Shown here: positions 2,014 through 50,856 of the stretch, piece after piece
How positions within the stretch are numbered: the stretch's first letter is position 1
Layout of the letters: each line of letters opens with the position of its first letter
Assembly: GCA_039794045.1 (NCBI GenBank)
Contig: JBAMLY010000009.1
Coordinates: 38,609 to 102,608 of the forward strand
DNA length: 64,000 nt
Direction of reading: 5' to 3'
Source: Candidatus Micrarchaeia archaeon
Lineage (GTDB): Archaea > Micrarchaeota > Micrarchaeia > Norongarragalinales > UBA8480
Notes under the pieces: generated by a model
Databases searched by the model: none
What the model was told of the DNA's origin: nothing
Seen by the model: only the letters and a program-made list of their open reading frames with translations
Program-made: the position numbers and the translations under genes

Positions 2014-2027
2014 TTCTTTGTTCCTCC

Positions 2028-18658: not shown

Positions 18659-18754
18659 GCTTTCTTGAACGCTTGCCGTCTTTAAAACTTGTTTCCTTTT
18701 GATTGCGTTGCTAGCCCAGGCAAGGTTTTAATTGAAGTCCTTCCTTTTAAGCGC

Positions 18755-36525: not shown

Positions 36526-36545
36526 CCACGCAAACCAAATTTTCT

Positions 36546-37670: not shown

Positions 37671-38036
37671 GTGGTTGGAGTGAGCGAGTTCAAGCAAGCA
37701 ATAATAATTCGCTGCGACCTCGGAATGGGGAAAGGAAAAATGGTGGCGCAAGGAAGCCATGCGTCGCTCCTCGCCTTTGAGGAAGCCCTAAAGAAAAACG
37801 AGGAAGCCGCGCGCGCTTGGCAAGCGAGCGGAAGCAAGAAAATAGTTCTGAGGGCTGCAAGCGAAAAAGAACTCGTCGAACTATACGCTAAAGCAAGGAA
37901 GGCAAGACTGCCTGCAGCGCTCGTAGTTGACGCGGGGCACACGCAAATAGAGGCGGGCACGAAGACCGCAGCTGGCATCGGACCAGCAGAAGAAAGCGCG
38001 CTTGACAAGATCACTGGAAAACTCAGGTTGTTATAG
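37671..38036 (+). CDS. pth2: Peptidyl-tRNA hydrolase Pth2 (archaeal type)
   Basis: 121 aa: KQAIIIRCDLGMGKGKMVAQGSHASL...GIGP, characteristic of Pth2. Confidence 0.85.
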   Translation: MVGVSEFKQAIIIRCDLGMGKGKMVAQGSHASLLAFEEALKKNEEAARAWQASGSKKIVLRAASEKELVELYAKARKARLPAALVVDAGHTQIEAGTKTAAGIGPAEESALDKITGKLRLL

Positions 38037-38088
38037 CGCTGCCACAAAGCTTTTTGAACACTCGCCGCATTCTATTTTTGAGCGCAAA

Positions 38089-39645
38089 ATGGCTTACTTG
38101 GACGAATTGATAGGGAAAGCGAAAGCGCAAAAAAAGGGAGTGGCTGGGCTCACGCCTGGCACGAAAGAACCAGAAAAGCCAGGCGGGCCAGAAAAAGAAA
38201 AAGTGTTGATTGACACTTACGACTCAGTCCACATCTACCGCGTGCCAGGAGAAGCCCTCTACTTCTACGAAGTCCCAACCCCGCGCTACCGCGGCGAAGA
38301 AAAAGCCTTGATTCAAGCCCTCATGGACATCGCAAGCAAAGTAATAGAAAGCGAGCACGAAGTCCCCCGCACTCTAGAGCAAAAGCGTTTCGCTTACAAG
38401 CAAAAAATCCTTGACATAATAGAGTCAACGCCGGAACTCAAAGTGCCGCCTGCCGCTAAAGAATTTTATGCTGACGCGGTAGTGCGCGAGATGGTAGGCT
38501 GGGGCTTGATAGACCCGCTCCTGGAAGACGAGTGGCTTGAAGATGTTATGGTGAACGGCCCAAACCAGCCAGTCTACGTCTTCCACAGGAAATACGACAT
38601 GATGAAGACGAACATAGTCTTCTACGACGACAAAGACATTCGCGACTTGATAGACCGCATCGCGCGCACCATAGGACGCCACATAGACATTCAAACCCCT
38701 TTGCTGGACGCGAGGCTCCCCGACGGAACGCGCGTGAACGCAACAGTGCCGCCAGCGAGCTTGAACGGCTCCACTTTGTCAATAAGAAAGTTCCGCACCG
38801 ACCCAATAACCATAATAGACTTAGTAAACTACGGCACGCTCAACTACGAAGTGGCCGCGTTTCTTTGGCTGGCAGCCGACGGCTTCGGAGCAAAGCCAGC
38901 CAACATGATAATAAGCGGCGGCACGGCAAGCGGGAAGACGACGCTATTGAACGTCATCTCGTCACTGGTGCCGAACAGCGAGCGCGTCATCACAATAGAA
39001 GACACTGCTGAACTCAACTTGCCGCTGGAGCAATGGGTTCGCTTTGAAACAAGGCCTCCTGGCGTGGAGGGCGGCGGCGAACTCACGATGGACATGCTGT
39101 TAAAGAACTCGCTGCGCATGAGGCCAGACCGCATCATTGTCGGCGAAATCCGGGGAGAGGAAGGACACACTCTTTTCTCGGCGATGAACACAGGACACGA
39201 CGGCTGCCTTGGAACGCTTCACGCAAACAGCGCGCGTGAAACCCTCATTCGCCTCAGCAACCCGCCAATCAACGTTCCCCTCATAATGCTTTCTTCCCTC
39301 AACTTCATCATAATGGAGCAGAGAATCAATGACCGCCGCAAGGGACTCATTCGCCGCATCACGGAAATAGCGGAAGTGATTTCAGTAGAGGAAAACAAGA
39401 TGCCCGAACTCCAAGTAATCTATCAATGGGACCCCGCAAAAGACGTCCTGCAAAGCACTGGAATGAATCCCTTGTACTTCCAAGTACTGCAGCGCTACAC
39501 GGCCTACACCAAGGACGTCATAGAAGAAGAACTCAAAAACCGCGCCAACATATTGAGGGAACTAAACTCGCGTGGCGTGCGCAGCCTCTCTGACGTGTGC
39601 GCCGTAACCCACAACTACATCTTGCGCACTCAAGGAAAACTGTGA
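38089..39645 (+). CDS. Type IV pilus assembly ATPase (FlaI/PilB/TadA-like); start moved to MAYLDEL
   Basis: Walker A ISGGTASGKTT, Asp/His boxes (RPDRIIVGEIRG, GTLHANS). It heads a locus with PilC-like genes and many prepilins. Confidence 0.85.
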   Translation: MAYLDELIGKAKAQKKGVAGLTPGTKEPEKPGGPEKEKVLIDTYDSVHIYRVPGEALYFYEVPTPRYRGEEKALIQALMDIASKVIESEHEVPRTLEQKRFAYKQKILDIIESTPELKVPPAAKEFYADAVVREMVGWGLIDPLLEDEWLEDVMVNGPNQPVYVFHRKYDMMKTNIVFYDDKDIRDLIDRIARTIGRHIDIQTPLLDARLPDGTRVNATVPPASLNGSTLSIRKFRTDPITIIDLVNYGTLNYEVAAFLWLAADGFGAKPANMIISGGTASGKTTLLNVISSLVPNSERVITIEDTAELNLPLEQWVRFETRPPGVEGGGELTMDMLLKNSLRMRPDRIIVGEIRGEEGHTLFSAMNTGHDGCLGTLHANSARETLIRLSNPPINVPLIMLSSLNFIIMEQRINDRRKGLIRRITEIAEVISVEENKMPELQVIYQWDPAKDVLQSTGMNPLYFQVLQRYTAYTKDVIEEELKNRANILRELNSRGVRSLSDVCAVTHNYILRTQGKL

Positions 39646-39657
39646 GGCCTTCAGTGA

Positions 39658-40797
39658 ATGCCTGAAAGCAAGCTGGAAAAAATAAAGCGCGCCGTGGAAA
39701 AAACAGAGCTTGAAACCCGCGCCGAAGTCTTGAAGGAAGAAGAGCTGGCGCGCCGCCGCGAACTCGACGAAATAATCGCAAAACTCAAGGAAAAACAAAA
39801 AAAAGGTTTTGTGGCAGAAAAGCGGCTGGAAAAAATAAAGGAGCACGTAGAAGAAAAACCAGAAATAAGCGAGGAAGAAACCAAGGCAGCAATCCGCTTG
39901 CAAGTAAGCAAGACGAAGGGAGTAGGCTGGTTTTACTCTTCCCTGCAAAAACCCATAACTTCAGTGTCAAAAGTTTTCTCTGTTATTCCAGTCGCAAAAA
40001 ACTTGAAGAAAGAACTCGCAAGCGCAGACATGCACATCACGCCAGAAGCCTACCTCGCCCTAACTACCACGGTCTCCGTCATAGCCGCAATAACTACTTG
40101 GATTGCCGCAGGCATTCTAGCGACTAGCTTGAGTAACTTGAGTGTAATAGAAATAGCTTCATCTATCTCGCTTGCCTTCGTTGGAGCAGTGCTGGCGTTC
40201 TTCGGGGTTTCTGCAGTCGCGCTCGCTTACCCTTCAATTCGCGCGTCCGAGCGAGCAAACAAAATAGACAAGGAACTGCCGTTCGCGTTGCGCCACCTCG
40301 CCACTCAACTCAAGGCCGGCGTGAGCCTCAACCGCGCAATGCGGTCAGTCGCGGACGCCAACTACGGCGCACTCACGCAAGAGTTCAGAAAAACGCTCGC
40401 TGACTTGGAGAGCGGCTTGAGCACGGAAGACGCGTTATTGAAGCTTGCAGACCGCAACCGCTCTCGAGGCCTAAAGCGCGCGGTAGTGCAAATAACGCGC
40501 GCGATCAGGACGGGCGGAAACCTCGCCGAAATAATTTCATCCATAGCAGACGACATCTCGTTTGAGTCCCGCATGAAAATACGCGACTTCACGGAAATGC
40601 TGAACATAATAAGCATAGTCTACATAATGGTAGGAGTAGTCGCGCCAGTAATGATAACCATTCTGTCCGCCGTAGCCCAGCTGCCAGTGTTCGGTGGCGG
40701 GATAGCATTCGGATTAGTGCTCGCAGTGTTCGCGGGAATAGTGGGCGCTACTGGCGCCCTCATCTTCCTAATCAAGAGACTAGAACCAGTAGCGTGA
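39658..40797 (+). CDS. Type IV pilus platform membrane protein (TadC/FlaJ/PilC-like)
   Basis: 379 aa with a coiled-coil N-terminus, then TM helices and a GspF/TadC-like cytoplasmic segment (LPFALRHLATQLKAGVSLNRAMRSVAD). Follows the ATPase. Confidence 0.65.
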   Translation: MPESKLEKIKRAVEKTELETRAEVLKEEELARRRELDEIIAKLKEKQKKGFVAEKRLEKIKEHVEEKPEISEEETKAAIRLQVSKTKGVGWFYSSLQKPITSVSKVFSVIPVAKNLKKELASADMHITPEAYLALTTTVSVIAAITTWIAAGILATSLSNLSVIEIASSISLAFVGAVLAFFGVSAVALAYPSIRASERANKIDKELPFALRHLATQLKAGVSLNRAMRSVADANYGALTQEFRKTLADLESGLSTEDALLKLADRNRSRGLKRAVVQITRAIRTGGNLAEIISSIADDISFESRMKIRDFTEMLNIISIVYIMVGVVAPVMITILSAVAQLPVFGGGIAFGLVLAVFAGIVGATGALIFLIKRLEPVA

Positions 40798-40801
40798 AAA
40801 A

Positions 40802-41845
40802 ATGACTTCGCTTTCGCAGCAGTGGGAAAACTTGAAGCGCTACTATGCGGCAACCGGCTTCCGAATAAGCCTGCCTGCCTTCATGGCGGTGATGCTGGCT
40901 TTCGCGGCAATAGCTGCCATGGCAAGCCTTGCGTTAATTCAACTCTTGCCGCCGGACTTGAAGCAGAACGCCCCCATAGTCGCGGCAGCATGCTTTGCAG
41001 CAATAATTTCGTTAATCATAGGCATTCCCGTTACGATCAGAAACAACCGCATTTCAGCAATAGAAAATAACTTGCCTGACGCGCTCAAGCACATGGCTTT
41101 AGTATTAAAGGCAGGCGGAACCACTGAAGCCGCGCTAGAAGAAGTGGCGAACGCAGACTACGGCCCACTCAGCGCAGACCTCAAAATTGGCTTGAAGGGC
41201 TTGAAGGAAGGAAAGCCGTTCGACGACGTGCTCCGCGAAACCGCAATAAACACTGGCTCGGTGTTGTTCAACAGGACTAGCGCAATAATGGTTGACGCGC
41301 GCCGCGCTGGCGCTGGCTTGGCAGATGTCATGAACGCGGTGGGAGACGACGCGCGAGACATTCTCCGCATCGGGCGCGAGCGAAAGAGTAGGACGATGAT
41401 GCACGTAATGTTCCTAATAATTTCAGGGTTGTTTCTCTCGCCATTCATTTTCGGCTTCACGATGAGCATTGTTTCCTTCATGTCTTCCGGAATTGCAGTG
41501 AGCGGCACAGGGCTCGGCGAAAGCGGGAGCACCGTCAACATGACAATCGCAGACTGCAGGGTTCCCTGCCTCATTCAAACCGACCCAGTAATGGCTGGCT
41601 TTCTCGCGGCCGGCCTTGCTCCCTTGAACACCGTAAAGCCATTGTACGAGTGGAGGCTCAACGCAATGGACCAGCTTTTAATGGTTTTCCTCGCAATAGT
41701 TTCAATAGTCACGCTCGTAGCAATAGGAGTTATAAGGGAAGGAAAACTGTTCAAGTACGTGCTTTACTTCCCCTTCGCCATACTCGCAGTAATAGTAATA
41801 TATTTGGCTGGAAAAATATTCAGTGGATTCATTATTGGGTCGTGA
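40802..41845 (+). CDS. Second TadC/FlaJ/PilC-like platform membrane protein
   Basis: 347 aa, paralogous in layout (LPDALKHMALVLKAGGTTEAALEEVANADYG). Tandem with the 39658 gene, as split PilC halves would be. Confidence 0.65.
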   Translation: MTSLSQQWENLKRYYAATGFRISLPAFMAVMLAFAAIAAMASLALIQLLPPDLKQNAPIVAAACFAAIISLIIGIPVTIRNNRISAIENNLPDALKHMALVLKAGGTTEAALEEVANADYGPLSADLKIGLKGLKEGKPFDDVLRETAINTGSVLFNRTSAIMVDARRAGAGLADVMNAVGDDARDILRIGRERKSRTMMHVMFLIISGLFLSPFIFGFTMSIVSFMSSGIAVSGTGLGESGSTVNMTIADCRVPCLIQTDPVMAGFLAAGLAPLNTVKPLYEWRLNAMDQLLMVFLAIVSIVTLVAIGVIREGKLFKYVLYFPFAILAVIVIYLAGKIFSGFIIGS

Positions 41846-41958: not shown

Positions 41959-42165
41959 ATGGATGAAAAAGCACAGGGAGCATTCGAGTACATTTTAATG
42001 CTGGCAGGCATTCTCTTGATCGTGGTCGTAATAATAATGGTGGTGAAGTCCAACATTCTCTCGCCGGCCACAGGGACAGTAGAACAAACAACTGGTCAAT
42101 ACCAGCAAACCACTAACTGTAGTGACTTGAACGCTTCAACGCTGCAGGAATGCTTGAACAAATAA
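41959..42165 (+). CDS. Short pilin (68 aa), class III signal peptide MDEKA|QGAFEY
   Basis: The signal peptide and helix are nearly identical to the four major pilin paralogs, but the C-terminal part is short (2 Cys, sequons NCS, NAS). Confidence 0.6.
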   Translation: MDEKAQGAFEYILMLAGILLIVVVIIMVVKSNILSPATGTVEQTTGQYQQTTNCSDLNASTLQECLNK

Positions 42166-42179
42166 GGAAGGTGAAAAAA

Positions 42180-42602
42180 ATGGGTTTTGCGCCGCGAAAG
42201 GGACAGGGAGCCTTCGAGTACATATTATTGCTCGCTGGCATTCTCTTAATAGTAGTAATCGTAATAATAGTCCTCAAAAGCGGTTTGACGCAGCAGTCGA
42301 GCACGAACATTGGAGAGTCAAGCGAGAAAATCCGCGTGAACGCGGCAGTGCGGTGCCTAGACTTCTGCGGCGACGGCGCGTGGGCTTGGGTAAAGTCAGC
42401 TAACTCGTCGATAACGCTTCAATACAACTCTTCTTGCCCGATTGCCGCAGGACTCAATGGAACTCCTAATTGCTTCTGGACTGGAAGCGACAACGCCGTC
42501 GGCTGCAACGCCACGTGGTCTACTGGAAGCAGCGTCTACGCCAACACTCCGCCCAACAACGCGAAATTCTGTCAGTTGGCGCAGCAGAGCTCGAGCAGCT
42601 GA
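42180..42602 (+). CDS. Major pilin paralog 1 (class III signal peptide, 6-Cys framework)
   Basis: MGFAPRKG|QGAFEYILLLAGILLIVV, then CLDFCGDGAW and C..NC..GCNAT..FC. Sequons NSS, NSS, NGT, NAT. RBS AGGAAGGTG upstream. Confidence 0.75.
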   Translation: MGFAPRKGQGAFEYILLLAGILLIVVIVIIVLKSGLTQQSSTNIGESSEKIRVNAAVRCLDFCGDGAWAWVKSANSSITLQYNSSCPIAAGLNGTPNCFWTGSDNAVGCNATWSTGSSVYANTPPNNAKFCQLAQQSSSS

Positions 42603-42610
42603 GCGCCACC

Positions 42611-42643
42611 CCTCTTTTTATTTTTATTCAAACTATTTTTTTC
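42611..42643 (+). promoter_or_regulatory. AT/T-rich intergenic element (TTTTTATTTTTATT): putative TATA/BRE promoter for pilin paralog 2 and T-rich terminator for paralog 1
   Basis: This is the only AT-rich stretch between the two pilin ORFs and lies about 20-30 nt upstream of the ATG at 42644. Confidence 0.35.
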
Positions 42644-43081
42644 ATGCCACGAAAACGCGGGCAAGGAGCTTTTGAATACATCTTGTTAGTCGCAGGCATT
42701 CTGTTAATCGTGGTCGTCGTCGTCTTGCTCTTGAAGTCAGGCGTAGTGCAAGGCGCGCAGAAAAACGTTGGCGAAAGCAGTGGAAGGCTTTCCGTGAACA
42801 GCAAGATAAGCTGCCTAGATTTCTGCGGCGAAGGGGCTTGGAGTTACGTGGCGAACGCCGAGCCAAGCGCGCGCGTGACGCCTTACGTTGACGCGTGCAC
42901 TCTCGCGGAAGGAGTGAACGGCAACGCTTCCTGTTTTTACGGTGAAAGCGACGCGGCTGCGCGCGACGGCGCCTACCATTACTGGTGCAACGCATCCAAC
43001 GTGACTGGAATGCAGAAGTACGCAAACACGCGTCCCAACAACCAGTTGTTCTGCGGCTACGTGCGCGAAAACGCTCCCTGA
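42644..43081 (+). CDS. Major pilin paralog 2; start moved to MPRKRG|QGAFEY
   Basis: Same signal peptide; CLDFCGEGAW, AC..SC..WCNAS..FCGYV. Sequons NAS, NAS, NVT. Confidence 0.75.
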   Translation: MPRKRGQGAFEYILLVAGILLIVVVVVLLLKSGVVQGAQKNVGESSGRLSVNSKISCLDFCGEGAWSYVANAEPSARVTPYVDACTLAEGVNGNASCFYGESDAAARDGAYHYWCNASNVTGMQKYANTRPNNQLFCGYVRENAP

Positions 43082-43099
43082 AAAGAATTTATATCGCGG

Positions 43100-43588
43100 T
43101 TGATTATTGGCTTAAACGGTTTGAGAGAGATTAAATTGAGAATTCCAGAGTTTGGGAAAAGAGGCCAGGGAGCCTTTGAATACATTTTGCTCGTCGCAGG
43201 CATTCTGCTCATCGTCGTGCTCGTCATACTACTCCTAAAGGGCGGGCTGGTGTCGCAAAGCGGTGCCAACGTGGCCGAGTCAGGCGAGAAAGCACGCATA
43301 AACAGCGAAATAAATTGCCTGCAATTCTGTGGCGCTGGCGCGTGGAAGTACATAACGCCAAATGCGAAGGGTAATTACACTAATTGCACTGTAAGAGAAG
43401 GAATAACCGGCAATCCGGCGTGCTTCTGGAACGCCAGCACTGGCGACACGGCAACCTGCAACGTCACTGCAGTTCTCATCGAGGCAGGCTATACTCCATC
43501 CGAGGCAGCAAAATACTACAATGTAACGCCCGCCAACACTGACTTCTGCGGCTACGTAAGGCAGACCGCCAAGGAAAGCACGAGGTAA
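43100..43588 (+). CDS. Major pilin paralog 3 (start uncertain: TTG at 43100, 43121 or 43136)
   Basis: ...EFGKRG|QGAFEYILLVAGILLIVV; CLQFCGAGAW, NC..AC..TCNVT..FCGYV. Sequons NYT, NCT, NAS, NVT, NVT. A TTTATAT box sits at about 43088. Confidence 0.7.
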   Translation: MIIGLNGLREIKLRIPEFGKRGQGAFEYILLVAGILLIVVLVILLLKGGLVSQSGANVAESGEKARINSEINCLQFCGAGAWKYITPNAKGNYTNCTVREGITGNPACFWNASTGDTATCNVTAVLIEAGYTPSEAAKYYNVTPANTDFCGYVRQTAKESTR

Positions 43589-43686
43589 GCAACGCGACCC
43601 ACCCGTGACTTTAAAAAAGCCACGAAATTTATTTTTAAAGAAGTGAACGCCTTCGAGGCGTTAAAAAGAATGGAGGGAAAAAGAAA

Positions 43687-44157
43687 ATGGTGCCCACCTT
43701 GAATTTAAAAAAGAAGAAAGGGCAGGGAGCCTTCGAGTACATCTTGCTCGTCGCAGGCATTCTGCTCATCGTAGTAATCGTGGTCTTCCTGTTGAAGGGA
43801 GGACTGCAAGCGCAAGCCGGAAGCGGCGGTGTAGTAAGCACGAGCACGGAAAAAATCAACATCAACGTGGAAAGCCAGTGCTTGGACTTCTGCGGCCCGG
43901 GCGCTTGGGCAGCGTACGGAGTGCAAAACAGTGACTTCGCAAACACTAATTGCACTCTCGCCGAAGGAGTAAACGGCAACAGCAGCTGCTACTACTCTGC
44001 AACCACTATAGGCAATAACGGCTTATGTAACGCGACTTACGTCTTAAAGCCCGGCGTTGCGCAAAGCAAGGGCTTACTGAACTCAAGTGGCGCCACGGTA
44101 GTACACCCGCAGAACACGCAGTTCTGCACTTACGTGCGCCAAGCAAGAGCAGGCTAG
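43687..44157 (+). CDS. Major pilin paralog 4
   Basis: MVPTLNLKKKKG|QGAFEYILLVAGILLIVV; CLDFCGPGAW, NC..SC..LCNAT..FCTYV. Sequons NCT, NSS, NAT, NSS. GGAGGG RBS upstream. Confidence 0.75.
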   Translation: MVPTLNLKKKKGQGAFEYILLVAGILLIVVIVVFLLKGGLQAQAGSGGVVSTSTEKININVESQCLDFCGPGAWAAYGVQNSDFANTNCTLAEGVNGNSSCYYSATTIGNNGLCNATYVLKPGVAQSKGLLNSSGATVVHPQNTQFCTYVRQARAG

Positions 44158-44235
44158 AACTTCCCGCTTTTCCCCCTTTTTTTATTTCTTCTTTTCCCTA
44201 AACCTTTTTATTGAAGGCGGGCCTGCAATAAAGTC

Positions 44236-44406
44236 ATGGACGAGCGAGCGCAGACCGCCACTGAGTACTTGCTTATTCTAGCGCTTGGCCTCGTCTTGCT
44301 CGGCGTCGTGCTCGCCATGGCTTTGCGCCTCCGCGACTTCAGCAACGTCTTGACCGGCCGCGTGGCAGAAGAAAGAAACAATACCTTGTCGATGCTAGTC
44401 AGCTGA
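44236..44406 (+). CDS. Minipilin (56 aa) with class III signal peptide; absent from the ORF track
   Basis: MDERA|QTATEYLLILALGLVLLGVVLAMAL.... The start mirrors the ORFs at 1846 and 41959. Confidence 0.5.
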   Translation: MDERAQTATEYLLILALGLVLLGVVLAMALRLRDFSNVLTGRVAEERNNTLSMLVS

Positions 44407-44439: not shown

Positions 44440-45492
44440 ATGCAGTACGCCTTGCCGGCATTAGTGGCAGCAGCTTTTGCTTGCACTGCAACAGTGTGGG
44501 ACTTGAGGAAGCGCTTGATTCCCAACGCGTTAAACTATTCATTTCTCGCCGCGGGGGCGGCGCTGGCGCTAGCGCAAGGAATTTTTTCTGTGGGTTACGT
44601 CGGACTAGTTGCGTTGTCTTTTGCTTTCGCTTATGCTTTGTACAAGGCAGGCGTTTGGGCTGGGGGAGACGCAAAGTTTTTCACGGCGCTCTCGTCTTTC
44701 CTGCCTTTCTTTTGGCAAGTACCGTTGACTGGCTGGAACGTTTTCTCTTTCCTAGCAATATTTTTTTACTCGGTGGCAGCAGGAGTGCCTGTCACTCTCC
44801 TCGCTTGCGCGCCAAAGCTGTGGTTGTTGCGTGGCGAGCTCGCTTCGCTCTTGCGCGCAGCAGCGCCGCGCGCTTTCTCGGCAGCGCTTGCTTCAGCGGC
44901 GGTTGCCTTTGCGTTGCAAAAGTTTTTCGCGCTCGTTCCACAAGCTGGTTGGGTTGCCTCGGCAGCCGCAGTCGTGTTTTTGTTGGCGGCGCGCGTGCCG
45001 CTAGCGGTTTCTGCGGCCGTCTTCGTTGCCGCTCTCGCGCTAGACCCGTTGAACTCGCTTGAGTTGTTTGCTGGCGCGCTCGCGGTCTCGTGGCTTGCGT
45101 TGTTCGCGTGGCAGGCGCTCGCGCTTGCCAGGAACAAGGTTTTGCGCCGCCACGTGAGAGTAGACGAGTTAGAAGAGGGAATGATTCCGGCTTACTCTGT
45201 GGTCGTTGACGAGAGCGGAAGAGCGCGGGAGTTGAGAACGCCTGGCTTAAAGGAGTTGCTTGCCGCCGCGGGAAAGGCTGATGCTGCCGCGCTGGCGCGG
45301 TTGCTCAAGCCACGGGAAAGAATAGTCGCGGACTCCAGGCTAGCTCGTGGTTTGAGTGAGACAGAGATAAAGGAATTAAAGGCGCTTGGAGTAAAGAGTT
45401 TGGTTGTCCGCGAGTCCATCGCGTTCGCGCCAGTAATGGTTGCTGGGTTCGCGTTGGCGGCTTTGCTGGGAGTGAAGTGGCTTGGCTTTTAA
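44440..45492 (+). CDS. Prepilin/preflagellin peptidase (A24 family, FlaK/PibD/EppA-like)
   Basis: First catalytic Asp in DLRKRLIPN, second in GGDAKFF, and a polytopic membrane topology. At 350 aa it has a long hydrophobic C-terminal extension. Confidence 0.8.
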   Translation: MQYALPALVAAAFACTATVWDLRKRLIPNALNYSFLAAGAALALAQGIFSVGYVGLVALSFAFAYALYKAGVWAGGDAKFFTALSSFLPFFWQVPLTGWNVFSFLAIFFYSVAAGVPVTLLACAPKLWLLRGELASLLRAAAPRAFSAALASAAVAFALQKFFALVPQAGWVASAAAVVFLLAARVPLAVSAAVFVAALALDPLNSLELFAGALAVSWLALFAWQALALARNKVLRRHVRVDELEEGMIPAYSVVVDESGRARELRTPGLKELLAAAGKADAAALARLLKPRERIVADSRLARGLSETEIKELKALGVKSLVVRESIAFAPVMVAGFALAALLGVKWLGF

Positions 45493-45916
45493 GAGAGGAC
45501 AGTTGGGAATAGAGTTTTTCTTGGTGGTGGCGTTCGTGCTTGTTCTCGGCAGCGTCTTGAGTGCTTCCGTGGACGAGCAAGTCATTGCCGCGAGGGCCTT
45601 AGACAGGGCTGCGCTAGCGAAAAGCGCGGTGGATGCAGTGTCTCACGCAATAAACCTCGTCACGCTGGAAGGCAACGGGGCTCTTGCCAGCAGAGAAGTT
45701 TTCTTTCCAGCTGAAACGCAGTGCATCCAGTACAGCAGCGCACGCAAGGCGCTTTACTGCGATGTCGCGGGAGCAGGCAAGGTTTACGGCGTAGCGCTTT
45801 ACCGCGAGCCGACAGTGTTACTGAATTGTTTTTCTTCAGGCACTCAAGGCTGGTTCCTTGTGACCGTGAATGGAACCAGCAATGGAGCGCAAGTTAATTG
45901 TACTAAACTGGGTTGA
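45482..45916 (+). CDS. Pilin-like protein (class III signal peptide MAFKRG|QLGIEFF), TTG start
   Basis: Q+1 and E+5, a hydrophobic helix and 3 Cys. It overlaps the peptidase stop by 11 nt. Confidence 0.6.
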   Translation: MAFKRGQLGIEFFLVVAFVLVLGSVLSASVDEQVIAARALDRAALAKSAVDAVSHAINLVTLEGNGALASREVFFPAETQCIQYSSARKALYCDVAGAGKVYGVALYREPTVLLNCFSSGTQGWFLVTVNGTSNGAQVNCTKLG

Positions 45917-45922
45917 AGTTGT

Positions 45923-46312
45923 TTGCGGGGGCAAGCTTTTTCAGAGTATTTGCTCGTCGTCGCCTTCATCGTGGCGCTGGCGGCGTTCTTCGTGCTTCCA
46001 GGCGCCCACCAAACAGAGGTGACGATGGGCTTGGCTGGCGCGCGCCTGGGTTGCGCGGAATACTCTGCAATTGAAAACTCTTCAGTTTACTGCACAGAGT
46101 TTTCTTACGCGGCAAGCGGACCGAACTTGACTATTTATCCCAAGGTGTTCGACTTGCAAGGCAAAAGAGTCACGGACTTGCCTGGAAGTTTTTACGCGCG
46201 AGTAATTTCAGGCATCGCAGGAAACATTTTAAACAACCGGAGTTTTTCTTGCGTTAACTGTATTTCGTGTTGGGTGGGGCACTACAATTACTGTGTTAAC
46301 GCGACGAGTTGA
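45923..46312 (+). CDS. Pilin-like protein (class III signal peptide MRG|QAFSEYLL), TTG start
   Basis: Q+1 and E+5, 6 Cys, sequons NSS, NLT, NRS, NAT. Confidence 0.6.
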   Translation: MRGQAFSEYLLVVAFIVALAAFFVLPGAHQTEVTMGLAGARLGCAEYSAIENSSVYCTEFSYAASGPNLTIYPKVFDLQGKRVTDLPGSFYARVISGIAGNILNNRSFSCVNCISCWVGHYNYCVNATS

Positions 46313-46836
46313 TGCGAGTGGACAACGCTTCAAAGTTTTACTTGCTGCTTGTTTGCGGGCTCGCGTTCGCCAGCGTTTCGGCTTTCGCGGAACCTTTGTT
46401 AGCGTTCGCTGGCTTTGCAGCGTTCTTGGTTGCAGCCATTGCTTTATCTAAGCGGTTCAAGGAAGCCGAGTTAAATGACGCGTGGAAGCTGCTCGCGCTC
46501 ACTGCCGTGATGGCTGCGCTCATGTTCAACGCGCGGTTGTTGTCTCGCGCTGGCGCTTTCGCCGTCGCAGTTGCGCTTGCTGTAGTCGTAGCGGCGTTCA
46601 CTGCGTTCAAGTTGCTTGCAAGCCGCAACGCGGTTGGCAGGGTGGTGGGGAGAAGGCGCGGCTTCATTTTAGTTGAAACAACTCGTTCGCTCTTGTCTCC
46701 TCTTCCTCCAGGAGTTTACGCCGTGAAAAGCACTGCAAGGCACCGAGAAGGAGAAAAAGTTGAGTTGCGCGTGAGCAAGGGCTTGTTTGGCCCGCCAAAG
46801 CCCGTGGAAGTGCTTTCTTGCAAGAAAAAGGAATAA
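46312..46836 (+). CDS. Membrane protein with C-terminal beta-rich (possibly NfeD-like OB) domain
   Basis: Three TM helices then GFILVETTRSLLSPLPPGVYAVKS...GEKVELRVSKG. Its ATG overlaps the upstream stop (TGATG). Confidence 0.4.
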   Translation: MRVDNASKFYLLLVCGLAFASVSAFAEPLLAFAGFAAFLVAAIALSKRFKEAELNDAWKLLALTAVMAALMFNARLLSRAGAFAVAVALAVVVAAFTAFKLLASRNAVGRVVGRRRGFILVETTRSLLSPLPPGVYAVKSTARHREGEKVELRVSKGLFGPPKPVEVLSCKKKE

Positions 46837-47201
46837 TTTTTTTCTGCGTCATCGTCTCGCTTGCAGGGGTGGCGGCGCTGTTTTTCTTGTCTTGGTCTCT
46901 CGAGCCACGCAAGGCAGCAATAAACGAGTTGGGTTTGGAGGACGTCGGCAAGAAAGTGCTTGTTTCTGGGTTTGTGGCGTCCGCGCGCAAGTCTGGCGGA
47001 AACTATTTCTTGAAGGTCTGCGATTCAAGCGCCTGCATTCAAGTCCCCGTTTTTTCCTCTGTTGCGGCGAGAATGAAGGAAAGGGGTTTTGACGCGGGCA
47101 GCGTGGGAAAGGGAGACTTCATTGAAGTAGTAGGCGCGGTAAGCGAGTACGGCGGCGAGCTCGAAGTCGTGGCAGCCGAGTTAGACGTGCTTAGAAAATG
47201 A
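46818..47201 (+). CDS. Membrane-anchored OB-fold protein
   Basis: N-terminal TM helix then KKVLVSGFVASARKSGGNYFLKVCDSSACIQV...GDFIEVVGAVSEYGGELEVV, a typical OB-fold (tRNA_anti-like) pattern. Confidence 0.45.
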   Translation: MQEKGIIFFCVIVSLAGVAALFFLSWSLEPRKAAINELGLEDVGKKVLVSGFVASARKSGGNYFLKVCDSSACIQVPVFSSVAARMKERGFDAGSVGKGDFIEVVGAVSEYGGELEVVAAELDVLRK

Positions 47202-48343
47202 GTGAGTTAGTCGCTTTTCTTGCTGGAACCGCGGTCGGCGCGCTCGGATTGATTCCGTTTCTTCACACTAACACTTTAGTGGAGTTGCTTCCGCGTTTTC
47301 TTGAAAGCGGGCCTGCAGCCGTTTTCGTGGTCTCCCTCGCCTTCAGCCACGCCGTGTTCGAAGTGCTTCCCGCGACTTTCTTTGCGGTGCCGTCCGCCTC
47401 GCAGAACATAAGCGTCGTGCCTGCGCACAGGCTAGCTCGCGAGGGGAAAGGCTTTCAAGCAATGAAGTTGATGGCTTACTCTCTCGCCGCCGGCGTTTTC
47501 TTTGGCGTGCTCGCGTCTCCTGCAGCCACGTTCTTGCTTCCATTGGCTTACTCGCTCGTCAAGCCAGTTACGGCCTTGCTTTTGTGCGGCGTGGTCGCAG
47601 TAATGCTCGCAGGAGAAAAAAACTTTTTCGCGGGATTGATTGTAGCGTGCTTGTCTGGATTGCTGGGCTTAGCTTCTTTTGGCTTGCCTCTCCCAGAACC
47701 AGTTTTTCCTTTGCTGGCGGGCTTGTTCGCAGTTCCTGCAGCGCTTGCTGGCGCTCGCGCGAGCGAGTTGGTGGAGCAGAGTGCGGGCGAACCACGCGTG
47801 CCGTGGGCGATGGTGCTGCTCGGCGCTTTTCTTGGCGCGTGCTCTGGGTTGCTGCCTGCCTTGAGTCCCGCCCTCTTGGCGGGAATCGCTTTCGTCTTCG
47901 TCAAGTCTGGTTCGGAGAAATTCATTGCTTTGACTTCCTCGATTGCCGGCGCAAAACTGGTTTCCGACTTGATAGTGCTTGGAGAGCTCGGCAAGGCCAG
48001 GTCTGGCGCGGCCGCAGCAGTGCAAAGCTTTCTTGGAGTGCCTTCTGCAACTGAAACCACTTTATTGGTGGTAGCGGGCGCGGCTGCGCTCGCGGCAGCG
48101 CTGGCTGCGCTGTTGCTGGTTTACAGGCGGGCCGCGCTAGCGCTTTGCGGCAAAAACTATGCTTTTTCAAGCAAGGTTTTCTTGTCGTTCTTGGCAGTCA
48201 TGTTGTTCTTTTTCGGTGGTTGGCTGGCTTTATTTGTTTGCGCTGTCGCCGCGTGCGTGGGAGTGCTTGCGCTCTTGCTGAATTGCAAGCGCAGCCTATG
48301 CTGTGCGGCGCTCTTGGTTCCAGCAATAGCTGCCTTGATTTAA
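47198..48343 (+). CDS. Polytopic Ala/Gly-rich membrane protein (possibly DUF112/TctA-like)
   Basis: 381 aa with roughly 10 TM helices. ATGA overlap with the upstream gene. The family call is from memory. Confidence 0.45.
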   Translation: MSELVAFLAGTAVGALGLIPFLHTNTLVELLPRFLESGPAAVFVVSLAFSHAVFEVLPATFFAVPSASQNISVVPAHRLAREGKGFQAMKLMAYSLAAGVFFGVLASPAATFLLPLAYSLVKPVTALLLCGVVAVMLAGEKNFFAGLIVACLSGLLGLASFGLPLPEPVFPLLAGLFAVPAALAGARASELVEQSAGEPRVPWAMVLLGAFLGACSGLLPALSPALLAGIAFVFVKSGSEKFIALTSSIAGAKLVSDLIVLGELGKARSGAAAAVQSFLGVPSATETTLLVVAGAAALAAALAALLLVYRRAALALCGKNYAFSSKVFLSFLAVMLFFFGGWLALFVCAVAACVGVLALLLNCKRSLCCAALLVPAIAALI

Positions 48344-48373: not shown

Positions 48374-48790
48374 ATGGTGCGCGCCCAACTGTCAATTGAA
48401 TTGTTTTTTGCTTTAGCATTGTTTTTCCTGGTGCTTTCGTGGGTGTCAAACTATGCTTCCACTGTCTATGACTCGCCAGCCCTCGTTTACACGCAGGAAA
48501 AAGCGGTAGCCAACTCACTGGTTGCCGCCGCGAACGCAGCCTGCGCTTCAAACACTTCGTCTTCTTTTTATTTGCCCTGCATTTCCAAGCGCGGCACAAA
48601 CTACGACTACGAGGCATTCAACGCGACCTCTAACTCGCCCGAGTTGCGAGTGCGCGTTCCAGCCCTGAACTCGTTCGCGCAAGCCAGGGCCTTGTGCCCA
48701 ATTTCAGGTTACGCCTCGGCTGAATGCGGGACTCTCGTGTGCATGAAAAGTAATTCTTCGTCAGTGTTGCTGAAAAACGGTGCTTGTTGA
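48374..48790 (+). CDS. Pilin-like secreted protein (class III signal peptide MVRA|QLSIELFF)
   Basis: Q+1 and E+5, 7 Cys, sequons NTS, NAT, NSS. Confidence 0.55.
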   Translation: MVRAQLSIELFFALALFFLVLSWVSNYASTVYDSPALVYTQEKAVANSLVAAANAACASNTSSSFYLPCISKRGTNYDYEAFNATSNSPELRVRVPALNSFAQARALCPISGYASAECGTLVCMKSNSSSVLLKNGAC

Positions 48791-49162
48791 GTGAAGGGAC
48801 AATTTTTCACAATGGATTTCCTCGCCGCAATAATAGTGGTCACTGCAGTGGTAGGTGGAATGCTTCACTTCCACGAACTCAACCAAAAAGCCTTCCTGCG
48901 CGCGACTGAATACAACTCTAACTCTGCTGAAGCGCTGGCGGAATACTTCGTGAACAACAACGCCACGCCTCCCTTCCAGCCGGCTTGCTGGTGCGCAGTG
49001 ATGCGGAACGCGACAAGCGTTTTCTACGACGACTGCAGAGAAAAAGAGTGCATGCGTTCTTGCAGTACGGTGTTCGCAGCAACGCGTCTTTCCCGCTACT
49101 GCTTGAACGCTACTTGCCCATGCGAAGGAGTTTCGTGTGCTTTAGAGGTGAGAACGTGCTGA
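48791..49162 (+). CDS. Cys-rich pilin-like secreted protein (MKG|QFFTMDF), GTG start
   Basis: K-G-Q motif plus a hydrophobic helix, 11 Cys, and three NAT sequons. The start codon abuts the upstream stop. Confidence 0.5.
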   Translation: MKGQFFTMDFLAAIIVVTAVVGGMLHFHELNQKAFLRATEYNSNSAEALAEYFVNNNATPPFQPACWCAVMRNATSVFYDDCREKECMRSCSTVFAATRLSRYCLNATCPCEGVSCALEVRTC

Positions 49163-49542
49163 AGGCCGCCATACTGTCTTTCGACGCGCTGCTGGCGCTT
49201 GCCGTCGCCGCTATAGCGTTCGGCTCAGTTGTTTCGTTCAGCAGCCTTGGCGCCGACAACTCCAAGAACGCACAGTTGAACGCGTTGGCGTGGGACTTCC
49301 TACACGACAAATACGGATTGAATTTGACTGTTTCAGCTGACGACTTCCACAACTTGACTGGACGCCACGTATTCGAAAGCCCTCCTTCAACAGCGCCCGC
49401 CGGGCACGCTCTTTACTACAAGTACAACAACTTGTGCGGTTGCGGGCAGTCATGCTACCTTGAAAACGAAATTAACACGTCGTGCTTGGAAGCGCAGGAC
49501 AATAACTCGAAGTACGAGTTCGAGGCTTGGGTGACTCCTTGA
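49156..49542 (+). CDS. Secreted or membrane-anchored protein with N-terminal hydrophobic helix (GTG start overlapping the upstream stop)
   Basis: GTGCTGA start-stop overlap. MLKAAILSFDALLALAVAAIAF, then CGCGQSC and sequons NLT, NLT, NTS. Confidence 0.4.
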   Translation: MLKAAILSFDALLALAVAAIAFGSVVSFSSLGADNSKNAQLNALAWDFLHDKYGLNLTVSADDFHNLTGRHVFESPPSTAPAGHALYYKYNNLCGCGQSCYLENEINTSCLEAQDNNSKYEFEAWVTP

Positions 49543-50192
49543 AAGCGTTTTTTTCGGCTTTGAGCGCGGCCCTCGTCATCGCAGCGATAACTGCTTCCGC
49601 GATCGCCGTACTCCACCTCTCCTCTCAAGAGGAAGTACAGCTCGCGCAAGTTTCAGCGAAAATAGCTTCCGATCGCCACGCATCAGTAAAACAGTTTTTC
49701 GCTGACGCTGTGAACGACGCCTTAGCTGACGCGGCTTACTCTGTTTACGGGTGCGCGCCATCCAAGCCAAATTTTTGCGAGCAAGTGAATCGCTCCACGT
49801 CTACAGACAAGGTCGTGGCTTACCTGAATTGGTCGCTTTCAGCCACTAACAACTCGCTAGTGGCAGTGTCTTACTCTCTCGCCAACCCTTACGCAACCCT
49901 CCCTTACGAGTGCTACGAGTTCGCCGCAGAACCCGGCTACAACCACTCATTCAATTACTCGACGCTATTGAACTTGCGAGTGGACTCGCCGAACGCCTTC
50001 AAACAAGACCAAACGCTTTTGTCCCGCAACGTTTCAGTGCGCGACTACGCACCAAAAATAATTAATGCAAGTCAAACTTGCTCGGAAGCCCAGTTGCTGC
50101 GCATCACGATTACCGGCAACTACGGTGCCGCCAAAGACTTCCTAGTAGACTGCAACCAAACCATCGACTTAGGCAACAACCCCTGCCCCTAA
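49539..50192 (+). CDS. Secreted or membrane-anchored protein with N-terminal hydrophobic helix (TTG start overlapping the upstream stop)
   Basis: cTTGAa overlap. MKAFFSALSAALVIAAITASAIAVL, and many sequons (NRS, NWS, NNS, NHS, NYS, NVS, NAS, NQT). An alternative TTG start lies at 49527. Confidence 0.4.
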   Translation: MKAFFSALSAALVIAAITASAIAVLHLSSQEEVQLAQVSAKIASDRHASVKQFFADAVNDALADAAYSVYGCAPSKPNFCEQVNRSTSTDKVVAYLNWSLSATNNSLVAVSYSLANPYATLPYECYEFAAEPGYNHSFNYSTLLNLRVDSPNAFKQDQTLLSRNVSVRDYAPKIINASQTCSEAQLLRITITGNYGAAKDFLVDCNQTIDLGNNPCP

Positions 50193-50238
50193 GTTTTTCG
50201 CAAGGATTTAAAGAGGAAACAACTCTTACTAGTAAGGG

Positions 50239-50856
50239 ATGCAAATGACTAAAAAACTCGTATTATGGGCTTTGTTCTTCCTCGTGCTCGCAATAGTCGT
50301 GCCTCCCTTCCTAAGCTTAGTGGACTATTCATTGAACGCCAAAAACTCGCAGCAAATAGACGCGGCACTCGCCGCGAAGCTAATCAAGGACGACGCGCGC
50401 GCGGCGTTCGGCGAGAGCGCGGCAGTCACGCTTAAGTCGCTCAACCAGAAAAACGGCAAATGGGAAGCAGAAGTGGAAATAGAGCAAGAACCGCACTCTG
50501 CCTGCCCAAAGCTCTACCGCCGGTATTACTCCCTTATGCCTATTTACTCGGTGACCGAAAACGTTTTGACTTCCTGTCAAGCCCTGCCCCCCGTAAGCAA
50601 CCGCGTCGAAGCAATAATTTTTTCTTCAAAGCTAGCCTCAATAGCGCAGCACGCTAATGCTAACGCCTACGCTTGCGCGTTCAAGGCCGGCGAAGAAATA
50701 GACTCTTCTTACTGCCCGAAAGCCAGTCCCGCCGAAATAAAGGCGTTCGCTGACTCTACGCCACGAGCTCGCTGGATAACCGCCTGGTTTTACGGCGACG
50801 GTTCAACTGCACTAATAGCCTTGGACGAGAAAGGAAGCGTGGTAGCGCAGCGCTAG
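50239..50856 (+). CDS. Secreted protein with signal anchor
   Basis: MQMTKKLVLWALFFLVLAIVVPPFLSL. Length 205 aa. Last gene of the pilus locus. Confidence 0.45.
   Translation: MQMTKKLVLWALFFLVLAIVVPPFLSLVDYSLNAKNSQQIDAALAAKLIKDDARAAFGESAAVTLKSLNQKNGKWEAEVEIEQEPHSACPKLYRRYYSLMPIYSVTENVLTSCQALPPVSNRVEAIIFSSKLASIAQHANANAYACAFKAGEEIDSSYCPKASPAEIKAFADSTPRARWITAWFYGDGSTALIALDEKGSVVAQR

What the first reader, a model, noticed from the sequence alone, without database searches (positions are those of the whole stretch)
46312..48343. Three translationally coupled membrane proteins of unknown role inside the pilus operon, including a membrane-anchored OB-fold protein
Between the pilin genes and the distal secreted-protein operon lie three genes joined by TGATG, a 19-nt overlap and an ATGA junction. 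They are a 3-TM protein with a beta-rich C-terminal domain, a single-pass protein with a classic OB-fold (KKVLVSGFV...GDFIEVVGAV), and a ~10-TM Ala/Gly-rich protein. None corresponds to a known archaeal pilus component (ATPase, platform, pilin, peptidase). They are candidates for novel assembly, anchoring or export factors. The polytopic one could be a transporter-like conduit.
Basis: inference. Interest (0 to 1): 0.5.

Follow-up and report, generated by a model that had tools for sequence, protein, structure and literature searches.

The report
Archaeal DNA-uptake genes inside pilus operon
Two of the three "unknown" membrane genes are the same kind of gene pair that Methanococcus needs to take up foreign DNA, and in this small symbiotic archaeon (Micrarchaeota) the pair sits inside the type IV pilus operon, which suggests the whole operon encodes a DNA-uptake machine.

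Summary
Their role is not wholly unknown.

**Identities**
- Gene 2 has one transmembrane helix plus a PF01336 OB fold.
- Gene 3 is a full-length archaeal-type TctA/DUF112 protein of 381 aa with about 11 hydrophobic segments. It has no TctB or TctC partner.
- Gene 1 is a divergent member of DUF2101, an uncharacterised family.

**Link to known biology**
An adjacent OB-fold/TctA-like pair with the same architecture and gene order (MMJJ_13020/13030) is essential for natural transformation in Methanococcus maripaludis (PMC10133366).

**Conserved context**
- In 26 non-redundant Micrarchaeota-type loci, an OB gene precedes TctA in 20 of 22 loci with enough upstream sequence.
- Pilin-like genes flank TctA in 24 of 24.
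- The fifth of five conserved downstream genes (D1-D5) follows in 15 of 16.
- In 72 more distant TctA-like loci the pilus linkage is absent. The one exception is a Hadarchaeales locus next to a pilin-like gene cluster.

**Best reading**
This is a pilus-coupled nucleic-acid uptake module. The OB fold would act as the outer receptor and the TctA-like protein as the membrane passage. Gene function, and direct orthology to the Methanococcus genes, could not be tested here.

I rate it a new variant of a known kind, of moderate to good interest.

The parts
38002..39645 (+). Type IV pilus assembly ATPase (T2SSE/FlaI-TadA family). First gene of the cluster.
   Evidence: PF00437. NCBIfam FlaI-like 312 bits and TadA-like 248 bits, both below their equivalog cut-offs.
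39658..41845 (+). Two consecutive TadC/T2SSF-type platform genes (39658-40797 and 40802-41845).
   Evidence: PF00482 on both. Weak ArlJ/UpsF/GspF matches. Makarova et al. describe 'two TadC components' for the clade 1 pilus systems of Methanococci and relatives.
41959..44406 (+). Six pilin genes with class III signal peptides. Their N-termini are nearly identical (..GQGAFEYILLVAGILLIVV..).
   Evidence: Translations. PF04021 Class_IIIsignal hits.
44440..45492 (+). Prepilin peptidase (A24 family with the archaeal C-terminal domain).
   Evidence: PF01478 E=3.4e-11 and PF06819 E=1.7e-6.
45482..46312 (+). Two pilin-like genes, X1 (45482-45916) and X2 (45923-46312). Leaders are MAFKRGQLGIEFF.. and MRGQAFSEY...
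   Evidence: Translations. One N-terminal hydrophobic segment each, with 4 and 6 Cys. Conserved directly upstream of the OB/TctA genes in related loci.
46312..46836 (+). P1: small basic membrane protein with about 4 helices and a roughly 60-aa C-terminal beta domain. It is a divergent DUF2101 relative, present in only about half of the related loci.
   Evidence: Its own Pfam match is weak (DUF2101 E=0.2). An exhaustive search of 1.84 billion representatives gave 11 relatives of 166-192 aa. Two of them pass the DUF2101 cut-off: P0129 at 39.1 bits and P0126 at 26.1 bits, against 22. AF2 single-sequence model pLDDT 58.5, four helices plus five strands. Present in 9 of 19 Micrarchaeota-type loci, and wherever the gene order was printed it sits between X2 and the OB gene.
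46818..47201 (+). P2: single-pass membrane-anchored OB-fold protein, a candidate nucleic-acid receptor. Same architecture as M. maripaludis MMJJ_13020.
   Evidence: PF01336 E=2.5e-10, 40.6 bits against a cut-off of 27. 9 of 16 orthologues hit PF01336, best E=7.5e-17. One TM, an acidic linker, and two Cys beyond the TM helix in all but one Micrarchaeota-type orthologue (four in L013) and in L033; none in Hadarchaeales L025. Literature.
47198..48343 (+). P3: archaeal-type TctA/DUF112 polytopic membrane protein, a candidate translocator. Same family and position as M. maripaludis MMJJ_13030.
48374..50856 (+). Five conserved downstream genes: D1 48374-48790, D2 48791-49162, D3 49135-49542, D4 49539-50192, D5 50239-50856. 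D1-D4 have pilin-like N-termini and D5 has an N-terminal anchor. None has a Pfam family.
   Evidence: Translations. 4-10 Cys each. No Pfam hits for D1, D2, D4 and D5 when scanned, and no precomputed Pfam hit for any of the five gene calls. D5 follows TctA in 15 of 16 Micrarchaeota-type loci with enough downstream sequence. The block stays with TctA even where the pilus core (L006) or the OB gene (L047, L054) is missing.

Best explanation
The three genes belong to a pilus-coupled nucleic-acid uptake module, the archaeal counterpart of a competence system. The window comes from a Micrarchaeota (DPANN) genome.

Its roughly 12.8-kb cluster encodes, in order:
- a pilus ATPase
- two platform proteins
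- six pilins
- the prepilin peptidase
- two pilin-like proteins
- P1, P2 and P3
- five more genes, D1-D5, of which D1-D4 are pilin-like

Proposed mechanism:
1. The type IV pilus captures extracellular DNA from the environment or the host and brings it to the cell surface.
2. P2 is anchored by one helix, with its OB fold on the outer face. It receives the nucleic acid.
3. P3, an 11-segment TctA-like protein, provides or energises the passage across the membrane.
4. P1 is a lineage-specific accessory. Its very basic C-terminal beta domain is predicted to lie on the cytoplasmic side.

Shown here: the family identities, the architectures, the gene overlaps and the conserved synteny with pilus genes.

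Taken from the literature: an OB-fold/TctA-like pair of the same architecture and order is essential for natural transformation in Methanococcus.

Inferred: DNA binding by the OB fold, its outside orientation, translocation through or by the TctA-like protein, and any role for P1 and D1-D5.
For: - Family identities: PF01336 OB fold and full-length PF01970 TctA, both above the curated cut-offs.
- Architecture matches the published pair. P2 has one TM plus an OB fold. P3 is a 381-aa, roughly 11-segment TctA-like protein. The OB gene is directly upstream and no TctB or TctC gene lies nearby.
- In M. maripaludis, in-frame deletions of MMJJ_13020 (OB fold, one TM) or MMJJ_13030 (TctA-like, 11 TM) abolish transformation and are complemented in trans. 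Deleting the TctA homologue in M. thermophilus also abolishes transformation. Type IV-like pili are required in both organisms (PMC10133366).
- Overlapping start and stop codons link the three genes.
- Conserved synteny at 34-47% TctA identity in 26 non-redundant loci. OB is adjacent in 20 of 22, pilin-like genes lie within 6 kb in 24 of 24, and the A24 peptidase lies within 4 kb in 10 of 12. The ATPase lies within 10 kb in 5 of 10, and D5 is downstream in 15 of 16.
- An independent lineage shows a similar link. In Hadarchaeales L025 an OB-TctA pair lies next to a run of seven pilin-like genes.
- The OB-TctA pair also occurs in several other archaeal contigs (L033, L057, L063, L084, L088, L115).
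- Most Micrarchaeota-type OB orthologues keep two Cys beyond the TM helix, and the linker after the TM is acidic. This is compatible with an extracellular domain.
Against: - No direct sequence comparison with MMJJ_13020/13030 was possible, so orthology rests on Pfam family, architecture and gene order.
- The Methanococcus study did not test whether the mutants still make pili. A pilus-biogenesis role would explain the same phenotype.
- The TctA-like model most resembles secondary transporters of small solutes, a fold with no precedent as a DNA conduit.
- The few columns invariant or nearly invariant across all 16 aligned OB proteins are glycines, so no nucleic-acid-binding motif could be pointed to.
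- Outside this clade most TctA-like genes have no OB or pilus neighbour: OB in 6 of 60, pilin-like genes in 1 of 62, ATPase in 0 of 19. In haloarchaea the gene stands among housekeeping genes. The family as a whole is therefore not tied to pili.
- The HMMs used for neighbours were trained on the Micrarchaeota clade and undercount divergent OB and pilin genes. Three further OB-like neighbours were seen only by eye.
Confidence: 0.55

Rival explanations
1. Pilus-biogenesis or anchoring accessory. The OB-fold protein, the TctA-like protein, P1 and D1-D5 would form a membrane sub-complex that assembles, anchors or primes the pilus, for example a minor-pilin initiation complex. The OB fold would bind protein or glycan rather than DNA. 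The transformation defect in Methanococcus would then be an indirect result of pilus loss.
For: - The tightest linkage of TctA is to pilin-like genes (X1, X2, D1-D4) rather than to the ATPase.
- The TctA + D1-D5 block persists without an adjacent OB gene in L047 and L054.
- Piliation of the Methanococcus mutants is not reported.
- Makarova et al. note unassigned membrane proteins in clade 1 pilus loci.
Against: - In M. maripaludis the pair lies far from the epd pilus genes (MMJJ_13020/30 against MMJJ_08280-90 and MMJJ_10560-80).
- The OB domain matches the nucleic-acid-binding OB family PF01336.
- No described type IV pilus system uses a TctA-type protein. This last point rests on my own knowledge and on the absence of TctA from the archaeal census and its supplements.
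Confidence: 0.25
2. Small-molecule transporter co-expressed with the pilus. The TctA-like protein would import an organic acid or another host-derived metabolite, as bacterial TctA does. The OB-fold protein would serve as its extracytoplasmic binding subunit in place of TctC. The operon would couple host attachment with nutrient uptake in an obligate symbiont.
For: - Full-length match to the TctA transporter family.
- Closest folds are solute carriers: YS1, DASS, Pho90 and ArsB.
- Most family members, including the haloarchaeal ones, stand alone among metabolic or housekeeping genes.
Against: - No TctB or TctC partner.
- The protein is 381 aa, the archaeal type that the Methanococcus authors contrast with the 12-TM bacterial TctA.
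- The only genetic phenotype known for the archaeal pair is loss of transformation.
- The PF01336 OB fold is not a known solute-binding subunit. This is my own knowledge.
Confidence: 0.12
3. Chance adjacency, or a stomatin/NfeD-type housekeeping system that happens to lie inside the pilus cluster.
For: - P1's layout (TM helices plus a small C-terminal beta domain) looks superficially like short NfeD proteins. This resemblance is from memory and was not demonstrated.
- The window is otherwise full of housekeeping genes.
Against: - No NfeD (PF01957) or SPFH hit for P1 or its relatives at permissive thresholds, and no stomatin gene within 10 kb on either side.
- Gene order is conserved down to 34% TctA identity across 26 non-redundant loci, and start and stop codons overlap.
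Confidence: 0.03

Closest known systems
M. maripaludis MMJJ_13020 (OB-fold, one TM) and MMJJ_13030 (TctA-like, 11 TM), both essential for natural transformation (Fonseca et al. 2023, PMC10133366)
   Same: -
- Same architectures: a single-pass OB-fold protein and a roughly 11-TM TctA-like protein.
- Same adjacency and order, with OB upstream.
- No TctB or TctC.
- The organism also carries a type IV pilus system with two platform genes.
   Different: - In Methanococcus the pair lies well away from the epd pilus genes. Here it is embedded in the pilus operon.
- Here it is flanked by pilin-like genes, and a DUF2101-like gene comes first.
- Function is untested here.
- Direct sequence similarity to the Methanococcus proteins could not be measured.
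Bacterial competence machinery: ComG/type IV competence pilus, ComEA and ComEC
   Same: - Functional analogy: a pilus operon with several minor pilins, a membrane-anchored DNA receptor and a polytopic membrane protein.
- ComEC also carries an extracytoplasmic OB fold (PMC5031224, listed).
   Different: - No homology was detected. There is no PF03772 competence domain, no DUF4131 and no helix-hairpin-helix ComEA domain.
- The membrane protein belongs to the TctA family instead.
Bacterial tripartite tricarboxylate transporter TctABC
   Same: P3 is a full-length homologue of the large subunit TctA (PF01970).
   Different: - No TctB (4-TM small subunit) and no TctC (periplasmic binding protein) nearby.
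- About 381 aa with about 11 segments. The Methanococcus paper cites 12 TM helices for bacterial TctA; the larger size of the bacterial proteins, about 500 aa, is my own knowledge.
- Pilus context instead of a carboxylate-utilisation context.
Clade 1 archaeal type IV pili (Methanococci, Methanobacteria, Thermococci; Makarova, Koonin and Albers 2016, PMC4858521)
   Same: An ATPase, two TadC-like genes, several small major pilins, at least five minor pilin-like proteins, a dedicated prepilin peptidase and extra unassigned membrane proteins.
   Different: - The census does not mention TctA, DUF112, DUF2101 or a membrane OB-fold partner in its text or its held supplements.
- Clade membership of the window's ATPase was not tested by phylogeny.
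Crenarchaeal Ced DNA-import system with Ups pili
   Same: Pilus-assisted DNA import in archaea using dedicated polytopic membrane proteins. This comparison is from my own knowledge.
   Different: - There is no relation to TctA or to an OB fold.
- Ced uses the CedB ATPase.
- The HerA-NurA pair next to this operon is a repair module whose adjacency is not conserved.

Membership tests
Archaeal OB-fold/TctA-like transformation pair (MMJJ_13020/13030 type) | Polytopic protein of the TctA family (PF01970), archaeal type with about 11 TM | tested here: met
   90.1 bits against a cut-off of 28.9, profile positions 1-419 of 423. About 11 hydrophobic segments. All-helical model with pLDDT 90.6.
Archaeal OB-fold/TctA-like transformation pair (MMJJ_13020/13030 type) | Adjacent upstream gene encoding a single-TM protein with a nucleic-acid-type OB fold | tested here: met
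   PF01336 at 40.6 bits against 27, one N-terminal TM, ATGA overlap with the TctA gene.
Archaeal OB-fold/TctA-like transformation pair (MMJJ_13020/13030 type) | Direct sequence orthology to the Methanococcus proteins | not testable with these tools
   No tool gave access to the Methanococcus sequences. The profile search listed only its top 120 hits, dominated by named haloarchaeal genomes and unnamed metagenome proteins, and the genome scan reached only DPANN, Hadarchaeales and Thermoplasmata-type contigs.
Archaeal OB-fold/TctA-like transformation pair (MMJJ_13020/13030 type) | Required for uptake of transforming DNA | not testable with these tools
   Needs genetics. Micrarchaeota are uncultured or grow only in co-culture.
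Bacterial TctABC tripartite tricarboxylate transporter | TctB small subunit and TctC periplasmic binding protein encoded alongside TctA | tested here: not met
   No TctB or TctC Pfam hit for P1 or P2 at E<=1, nor among the genes within 10 kb on either side.
ComEA/ComEC bacterial DNA-uptake proteins | Competence domain PF03772, DUF4131 OB region, ComEA helix-hairpin-helix | tested here: not met
   None of these families appears in the Pfam scans of P1-P3 at E<=1.
Stomatin/NfeD system | NfeD domain (PF01957) in P1 and a neighbouring SPFH/stomatin gene | tested here: not met
   No NfeD hit in P1, its 7 orthologues or its 13 relatives at E<=1 to 5. No SPFH gene within 10 kb on either side. The fold of P1's C-terminal domain is unresolved (pLDDT 58.5).
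DUF2101 (PF09874), for P1 | Score above the Pfam gathering threshold of 22 bits | tested here: inconclusive
   P1 itself scores 11.8 bits, E=0.2. Its relatives P0129 (39.1 bits) and P0126 (26.1 bits) pass over nearly the whole profile. They match P1 at E=1.6e-5 and 3.8e-6 in a search of 1.84 billion proteins. 7 of 13 family members hit DUF2101. The link is transitive: P1 is a divergent relative.
Canonical archaeal type IV pilus components (ATPase, TadC platform, pilin, A24 peptidase) | P1, P2 or P3 belongs to one of these families | tested here: not met
   No T2SSE, T2SSF, Class_IIIsignal or Peptidase_A24 hits for P1-P3. Those families are found in the neighbouring genes.

The most novel reading that the evidence does not exclude
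The TctA-like protein would be the long-sought archaeal DNA translocator, the functional analogue of ComEC, and the membrane-anchored OB-fold protein would be its external DNA receptor.

Micrarchaeota would then encode the entire uptake machine in one operon: pilus core, pilins, peptidase, pilin-like set, a DUF2101-like protein with a basic cytoplasmic domain, OB, TctA and D1-D5. That would give a near-complete parts list, including three component classes not yet implicated anywhere: DUF2101, D5 and the X/D pilin-like set.

In these genome-reduced symbionts the machine would serve to scavenge host or environmental DNA, both as a nucleotide source and as a route of gene transfer.
Probability: 0.3. 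Interest if true: 0.8.

Novelty: new variant of a known kind. Interest (0 to 1): 0.6.

Why it matters
How archaea move DNA across the membrane during natural transformation is still open. They lack ComEC, and the only candidates are the OB-fold/TctA-like pair found by transposon screening in Methanococcus.

In a whole archaeal clade this pair is physically wired into a type IV pilus operon through overlapping genes. That is independent comparative evidence that the pair works with the pilus rather than in general metabolism.

The finding also does three other things:
- It extends a candidate competence machine to DPANN symbionts.
- It nominates further conserved components to test: five downstream genes and a DUF2101-like protein.
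- It gives a compact gene set that could be tried in heterologous reconstitution.

I found no paper in the held library that links TctA or OB-fold genes to archaeal pilus loci or to DPANN.

Tried and rejected
1. A word-indexed homologue search with the OB protein found only the protein itself.
2. A TctA profile that included distant hits drifted to haloarchaeal proteins. Their genes have no OB or pilus neighbours, so that route did not reach Methanococcus.
A scan with the bona fide DUF2101 protein P0129 found no metagenome contigs, so the genomic context of canonical DUF2101 genes remains unknown.
4. A profile-profile comparison of P1 with the OB family showed no relation (probability 0.8%).
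5. A PDB sequence search with the P1 profile gave only noise.
6. The single-sequence AF2 model of P1 is low confidence, so I did not search its fold.
7. Searches with the TctA profile and model found no solved relative by sequence or by Foldseek. The AFDB library that might have given a direct comparison with a Methanococcus model was unavailable.
8. The NfeD/stomatin idea was rejected for lack of any signature.
9. I rejected TctB as the identity of P1, since there was no hit.
10. I considered whether the neighbouring HerA-NurA pair belongs to the system. I rejected this because the adjacency is not conserved in L003 or L005.
11. Counting K and R on either side of the OB protein's TM helix did not settle its orientation.
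Full report
**Source and setting**

The window matches a Candidatus Micrarchaeia MAG (GCA_049969435.1, contig JBMFOV010000002.1). The match is near-identical: P3 is encoded there exactly, and there is one 3-nt difference in a pilin leader.

The region 38.0-50.9 kb is a single-strand gene cluster. In order it holds:
- a T2SSE-family ATPase
- two T2SSF/TadC-type platform genes
- six class III signal-peptide pilins
- an A24 prepilin peptidase
- two pilin-like genes (X1, X2)
- the three genes of the finding
- five further genes (D1-D5)

Everything around the cluster is housekeeping: PTH2, HerA-NurA, XPD, ABCE1, Pelota and RFC.

**Observation**

The three ORFs and their junctions are exactly as described.
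- TGATG lies at 46310-46314.
- P1 and P2 overlap by 19 nt.
- ATGA lies at 47198-47201.
- The TTG start of P2 is supported by the aligned N-termini of its orthologues.

Two independent assemblies call all three as genes.

**What the proteins are**

*P3 (381 aa)*
- It is a full-length member of the TctA family: PF01970, 90.1 bits against a cut-off of 28.9, profile positions 1-419 of 423.
- It has about 11 hydrophobic segments.
- Its AlphaFold2 model is confident and all-helical (pLDDT 90.6).
- No solved structure is related by sequence or by Foldseek.

*P2 (127 aa)*
- It has one N-terminal transmembrane segment and an acidic linker.
- Its OB fold belongs to the nucleic-acid-binding family PF01336 (40.6 bits against 27).
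- 9 of 16 orthologues hit the same family, with best E=7.5e-17.

*P1 (174 aa)*
- On its own it has no significant family (DUF2101 E=0.2).
- An exhaustive HMMER search of 1.84 billion representatives found 11 relatives, all 166-192 aa.
- Two of them are bona fide DUF2101 members over almost the whole profile, at 39.1 and 26.1 bits against a cut-off of 22.
- 7 of the 13 sequences in the P1 family alignment hit DUF2101. P1 is therefore a divergent DUF2101 relative.
- DUF2101 does not appear in any paper of the held library.
- The low-confidence AF2 model gives four helices and five strands.
- P1 is strongly basic (K+R 25, D+E 11). By the positive-inside rule its C-terminal domain should be cytoplasmic. 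This is an inference.
- No NfeD, SPFH or TctB signature was found.

**The key link to known biology**

A transposon screen in Methanococcus maripaludis identified MMJJ_13020 and the adjacent MMJJ_13030. [quoted passage not shown] The second is a 'TctA family protein' with 11 TM helices.
- In-frame deletions of either gene abolish natural transformation and are complemented in trans.
- Deleting the TctA homologue in Methanoculleus thermophilus also abolishes transformation.
- The authors propose that the TctA-like protein is the archaeal DNA transporter. Archaea lack ComEC, and they also lack TctB and TctC (PMC10133366).

P2 and P3 reproduce that pair in family, architecture, order and adjacency. 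I could not obtain the Methanococcus sequences, so orthology is inferred and was not measured. The paper does not report whether the mutants still make pili.

**Comparative genomics**

I combined a scan of GTDB species representatives (26 loci), a metagenome scan (80 loci) and earlier look-ups. This gave 98 non-redundant TctA-like loci. I annotated them with HMMs built from the window's proteins.

Among the 26 loci whose TctA is at least 33% identical to P3 (those that carry an organism name are labelled Micrarchaeota, apart from one Woesearchaeota-labelled contig, L014):

| Feature | Loci with the feature / loci with enough flanking sequence |
|---|---|
| OB gene directly upstream of TctA | 20 / 22 |
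| Pilin-like genes within 6 kb | 24 / 24 |
| A24 peptidase within 4 kb | 10 / 12 |
| ATPase within 10 kb | 5 / 10 |
| D5 downstream | 15 / 16 |
| P1 present | 9 / 19 |

- Wherever the gene order was printed, P1 sits between X2 and the OB gene.
- The TctA + D1-D5 block persists where the pilus core is absent from the contig (L006).
- It also persists where the OB gene is missing (L047, L054).

Among the 72 more distant loci:
- An adjacent OB gene was detected in 6 of 60. At least three more single-TM upstream neighbours (L084, L088, L115), read by eye as OB-like, were missed by the HMM.
- Pilin-like genes were detected in 1 of 62.
- A pilus ATPase was detected in 0 of 19.
- The single exception for pilin-like genes is informative. 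In Hadarchaeales L025, a gene for a membrane-anchored protein with tandem OB folds, followed by TctA, lies beside a run of seven genes with [R]G-Q/F pilin-type leaders.
- Haloarchaeal TctA-like genes stand alone.

The OB-TctA pair is therefore widespread but patchy among archaea. Its fusion into a pilus operon is a feature of the Micrarchaeota clade.

**Mechanism**

The best-supported reading is a pilus-coupled nucleic-acid uptake module.
- The pilus captures DNA.
- The OB fold acts as a surface receptor. An outside orientation is suggested by the acidic linker and by the two cysteines that most Micrarchaeota-type orthologues keep beyond the TM helix. The surrounding pilin-like proteins are similarly Cys-rich.
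- The TctA-like protein provides the membrane passage or the energy coupling.
- P1 is an optional cytoplasmic-face accessory.

Only identities, architecture and linkage are shown here. DNA binding, topology and translocation are inferences.

The main rival (probability about 0.25) is that these proteins form a pilus-assembly or anchoring sub-complex, and that the Methanococcus phenotype is indirect. A small-solute transporter role (about 0.12) fits the fold but not the genetics or the missing TctB/C. Chance adjacency or an NfeD system is effectively excluded.

**Comparison with the known**
- It works like the bacterial ComG/ComEA/ComEC arrangement but shares none of their defining domains.
- It is a TctA-family member but not a TctABC transporter.
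- The pilus part resembles the clade 1 archaeal systems, which have two TadC genes, several small pilins, at least five minor pilin-like proteins, EppA and unassigned membrane proteins.
- That census does not mention TctA, DUF112, DUF2101 or a membrane OB-fold partner in its text or held supplements.
- No paper in the library links TctA to DPANN or to pilus loci.

**Verdict**

Two of them, however, belong to a gene pair already implicated in archaeal natural transformation, and the third is a divergent DUF2101 protein.

The new elements are the operonic fusion with the pilus genes in Micrarchaeota and the additional conserved partners D1-D5 and P1.

- Novelty: new variant of a known kind.
- Interest: 0.6.
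- Confidence in the uptake-module explanation: 0.55.

Noticed in passing
window 18689-20164 (+): A second T2SSE-family secretion/pilus ATPase (469-491 aa) stands alone between a CCA-adding enzyme gene and a LigT-like gene. No platform or pilin genes lie next to it.
   Followed up: no
window 35005-37652 (-), and 14577-17213 (+): A HerA (DUF87) and NurA DNA-end-resection pair lies immediately upstream of PTH2 and the pilus operon, and a Rad50-like SMC_N gene lies further up. The adjacency to the pilus operon is not conserved in L003 or L005, so it is probably coincidental.
   Followed up: partly
window about 1849-2016 (-) and 2028-2684 (-): A stand-alone 55-aa gene with a class III signal peptide sits beside a weak Peptidase_M50-like gene. 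A Peptidase M50 gene was also among the Methanococcus transformation hits. This may be coincidence.
   Followed up: no
window 43687-44157 (+): This pilin gene differs from the GCA_049969435.1 contig by one codon in the poly-lysine leader (156 against 155 aa). This indicates strain-level variation or an assembly difference in a homopolymer-like run.
   Followed up: no
window 48374-50856 (+), D1-D5: Five genes with no Pfam family are the most faithfully co-inherited partners of the TctA-like gene. D5 is present in 15 of 16 loci, and in L047 and L054 the block follows TctA even though no OB gene precedes it. D5 (205 aa, N-terminal anchor) scores highest against its family HMM of the five.
   Followed up: partly
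L010:5212-9185: In one Micrarchaeota MAG about 4 kb is inserted between X1 and X2. The insert carries three signal-peptide proteins of 172, 220 and 853 aa, possibly adhesin-like cargo of the pilus locus.
   Followed up: no
L025:4260-11230 (Hadarchaeales MAG JAVZGN010000005.1): A 226-aa membrane-anchored protein with two tandem OB folds is followed directly by a TctA-like gene. Beside them, on the opposite strand, is a run of seven genes with pilin-type RGQ/RGF leaders. This is an independent link between the pair and pilin-like genes outside DPANN.
   Followed up: partly
L043:5794-8625: A 943-aa protein with a pilin-like N-terminus lies downstream of the D1-D5 block in a metagenomic Micrarchaeota-type locus. 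It is possibly a pilus-tip adhesin.
   Followed up: no
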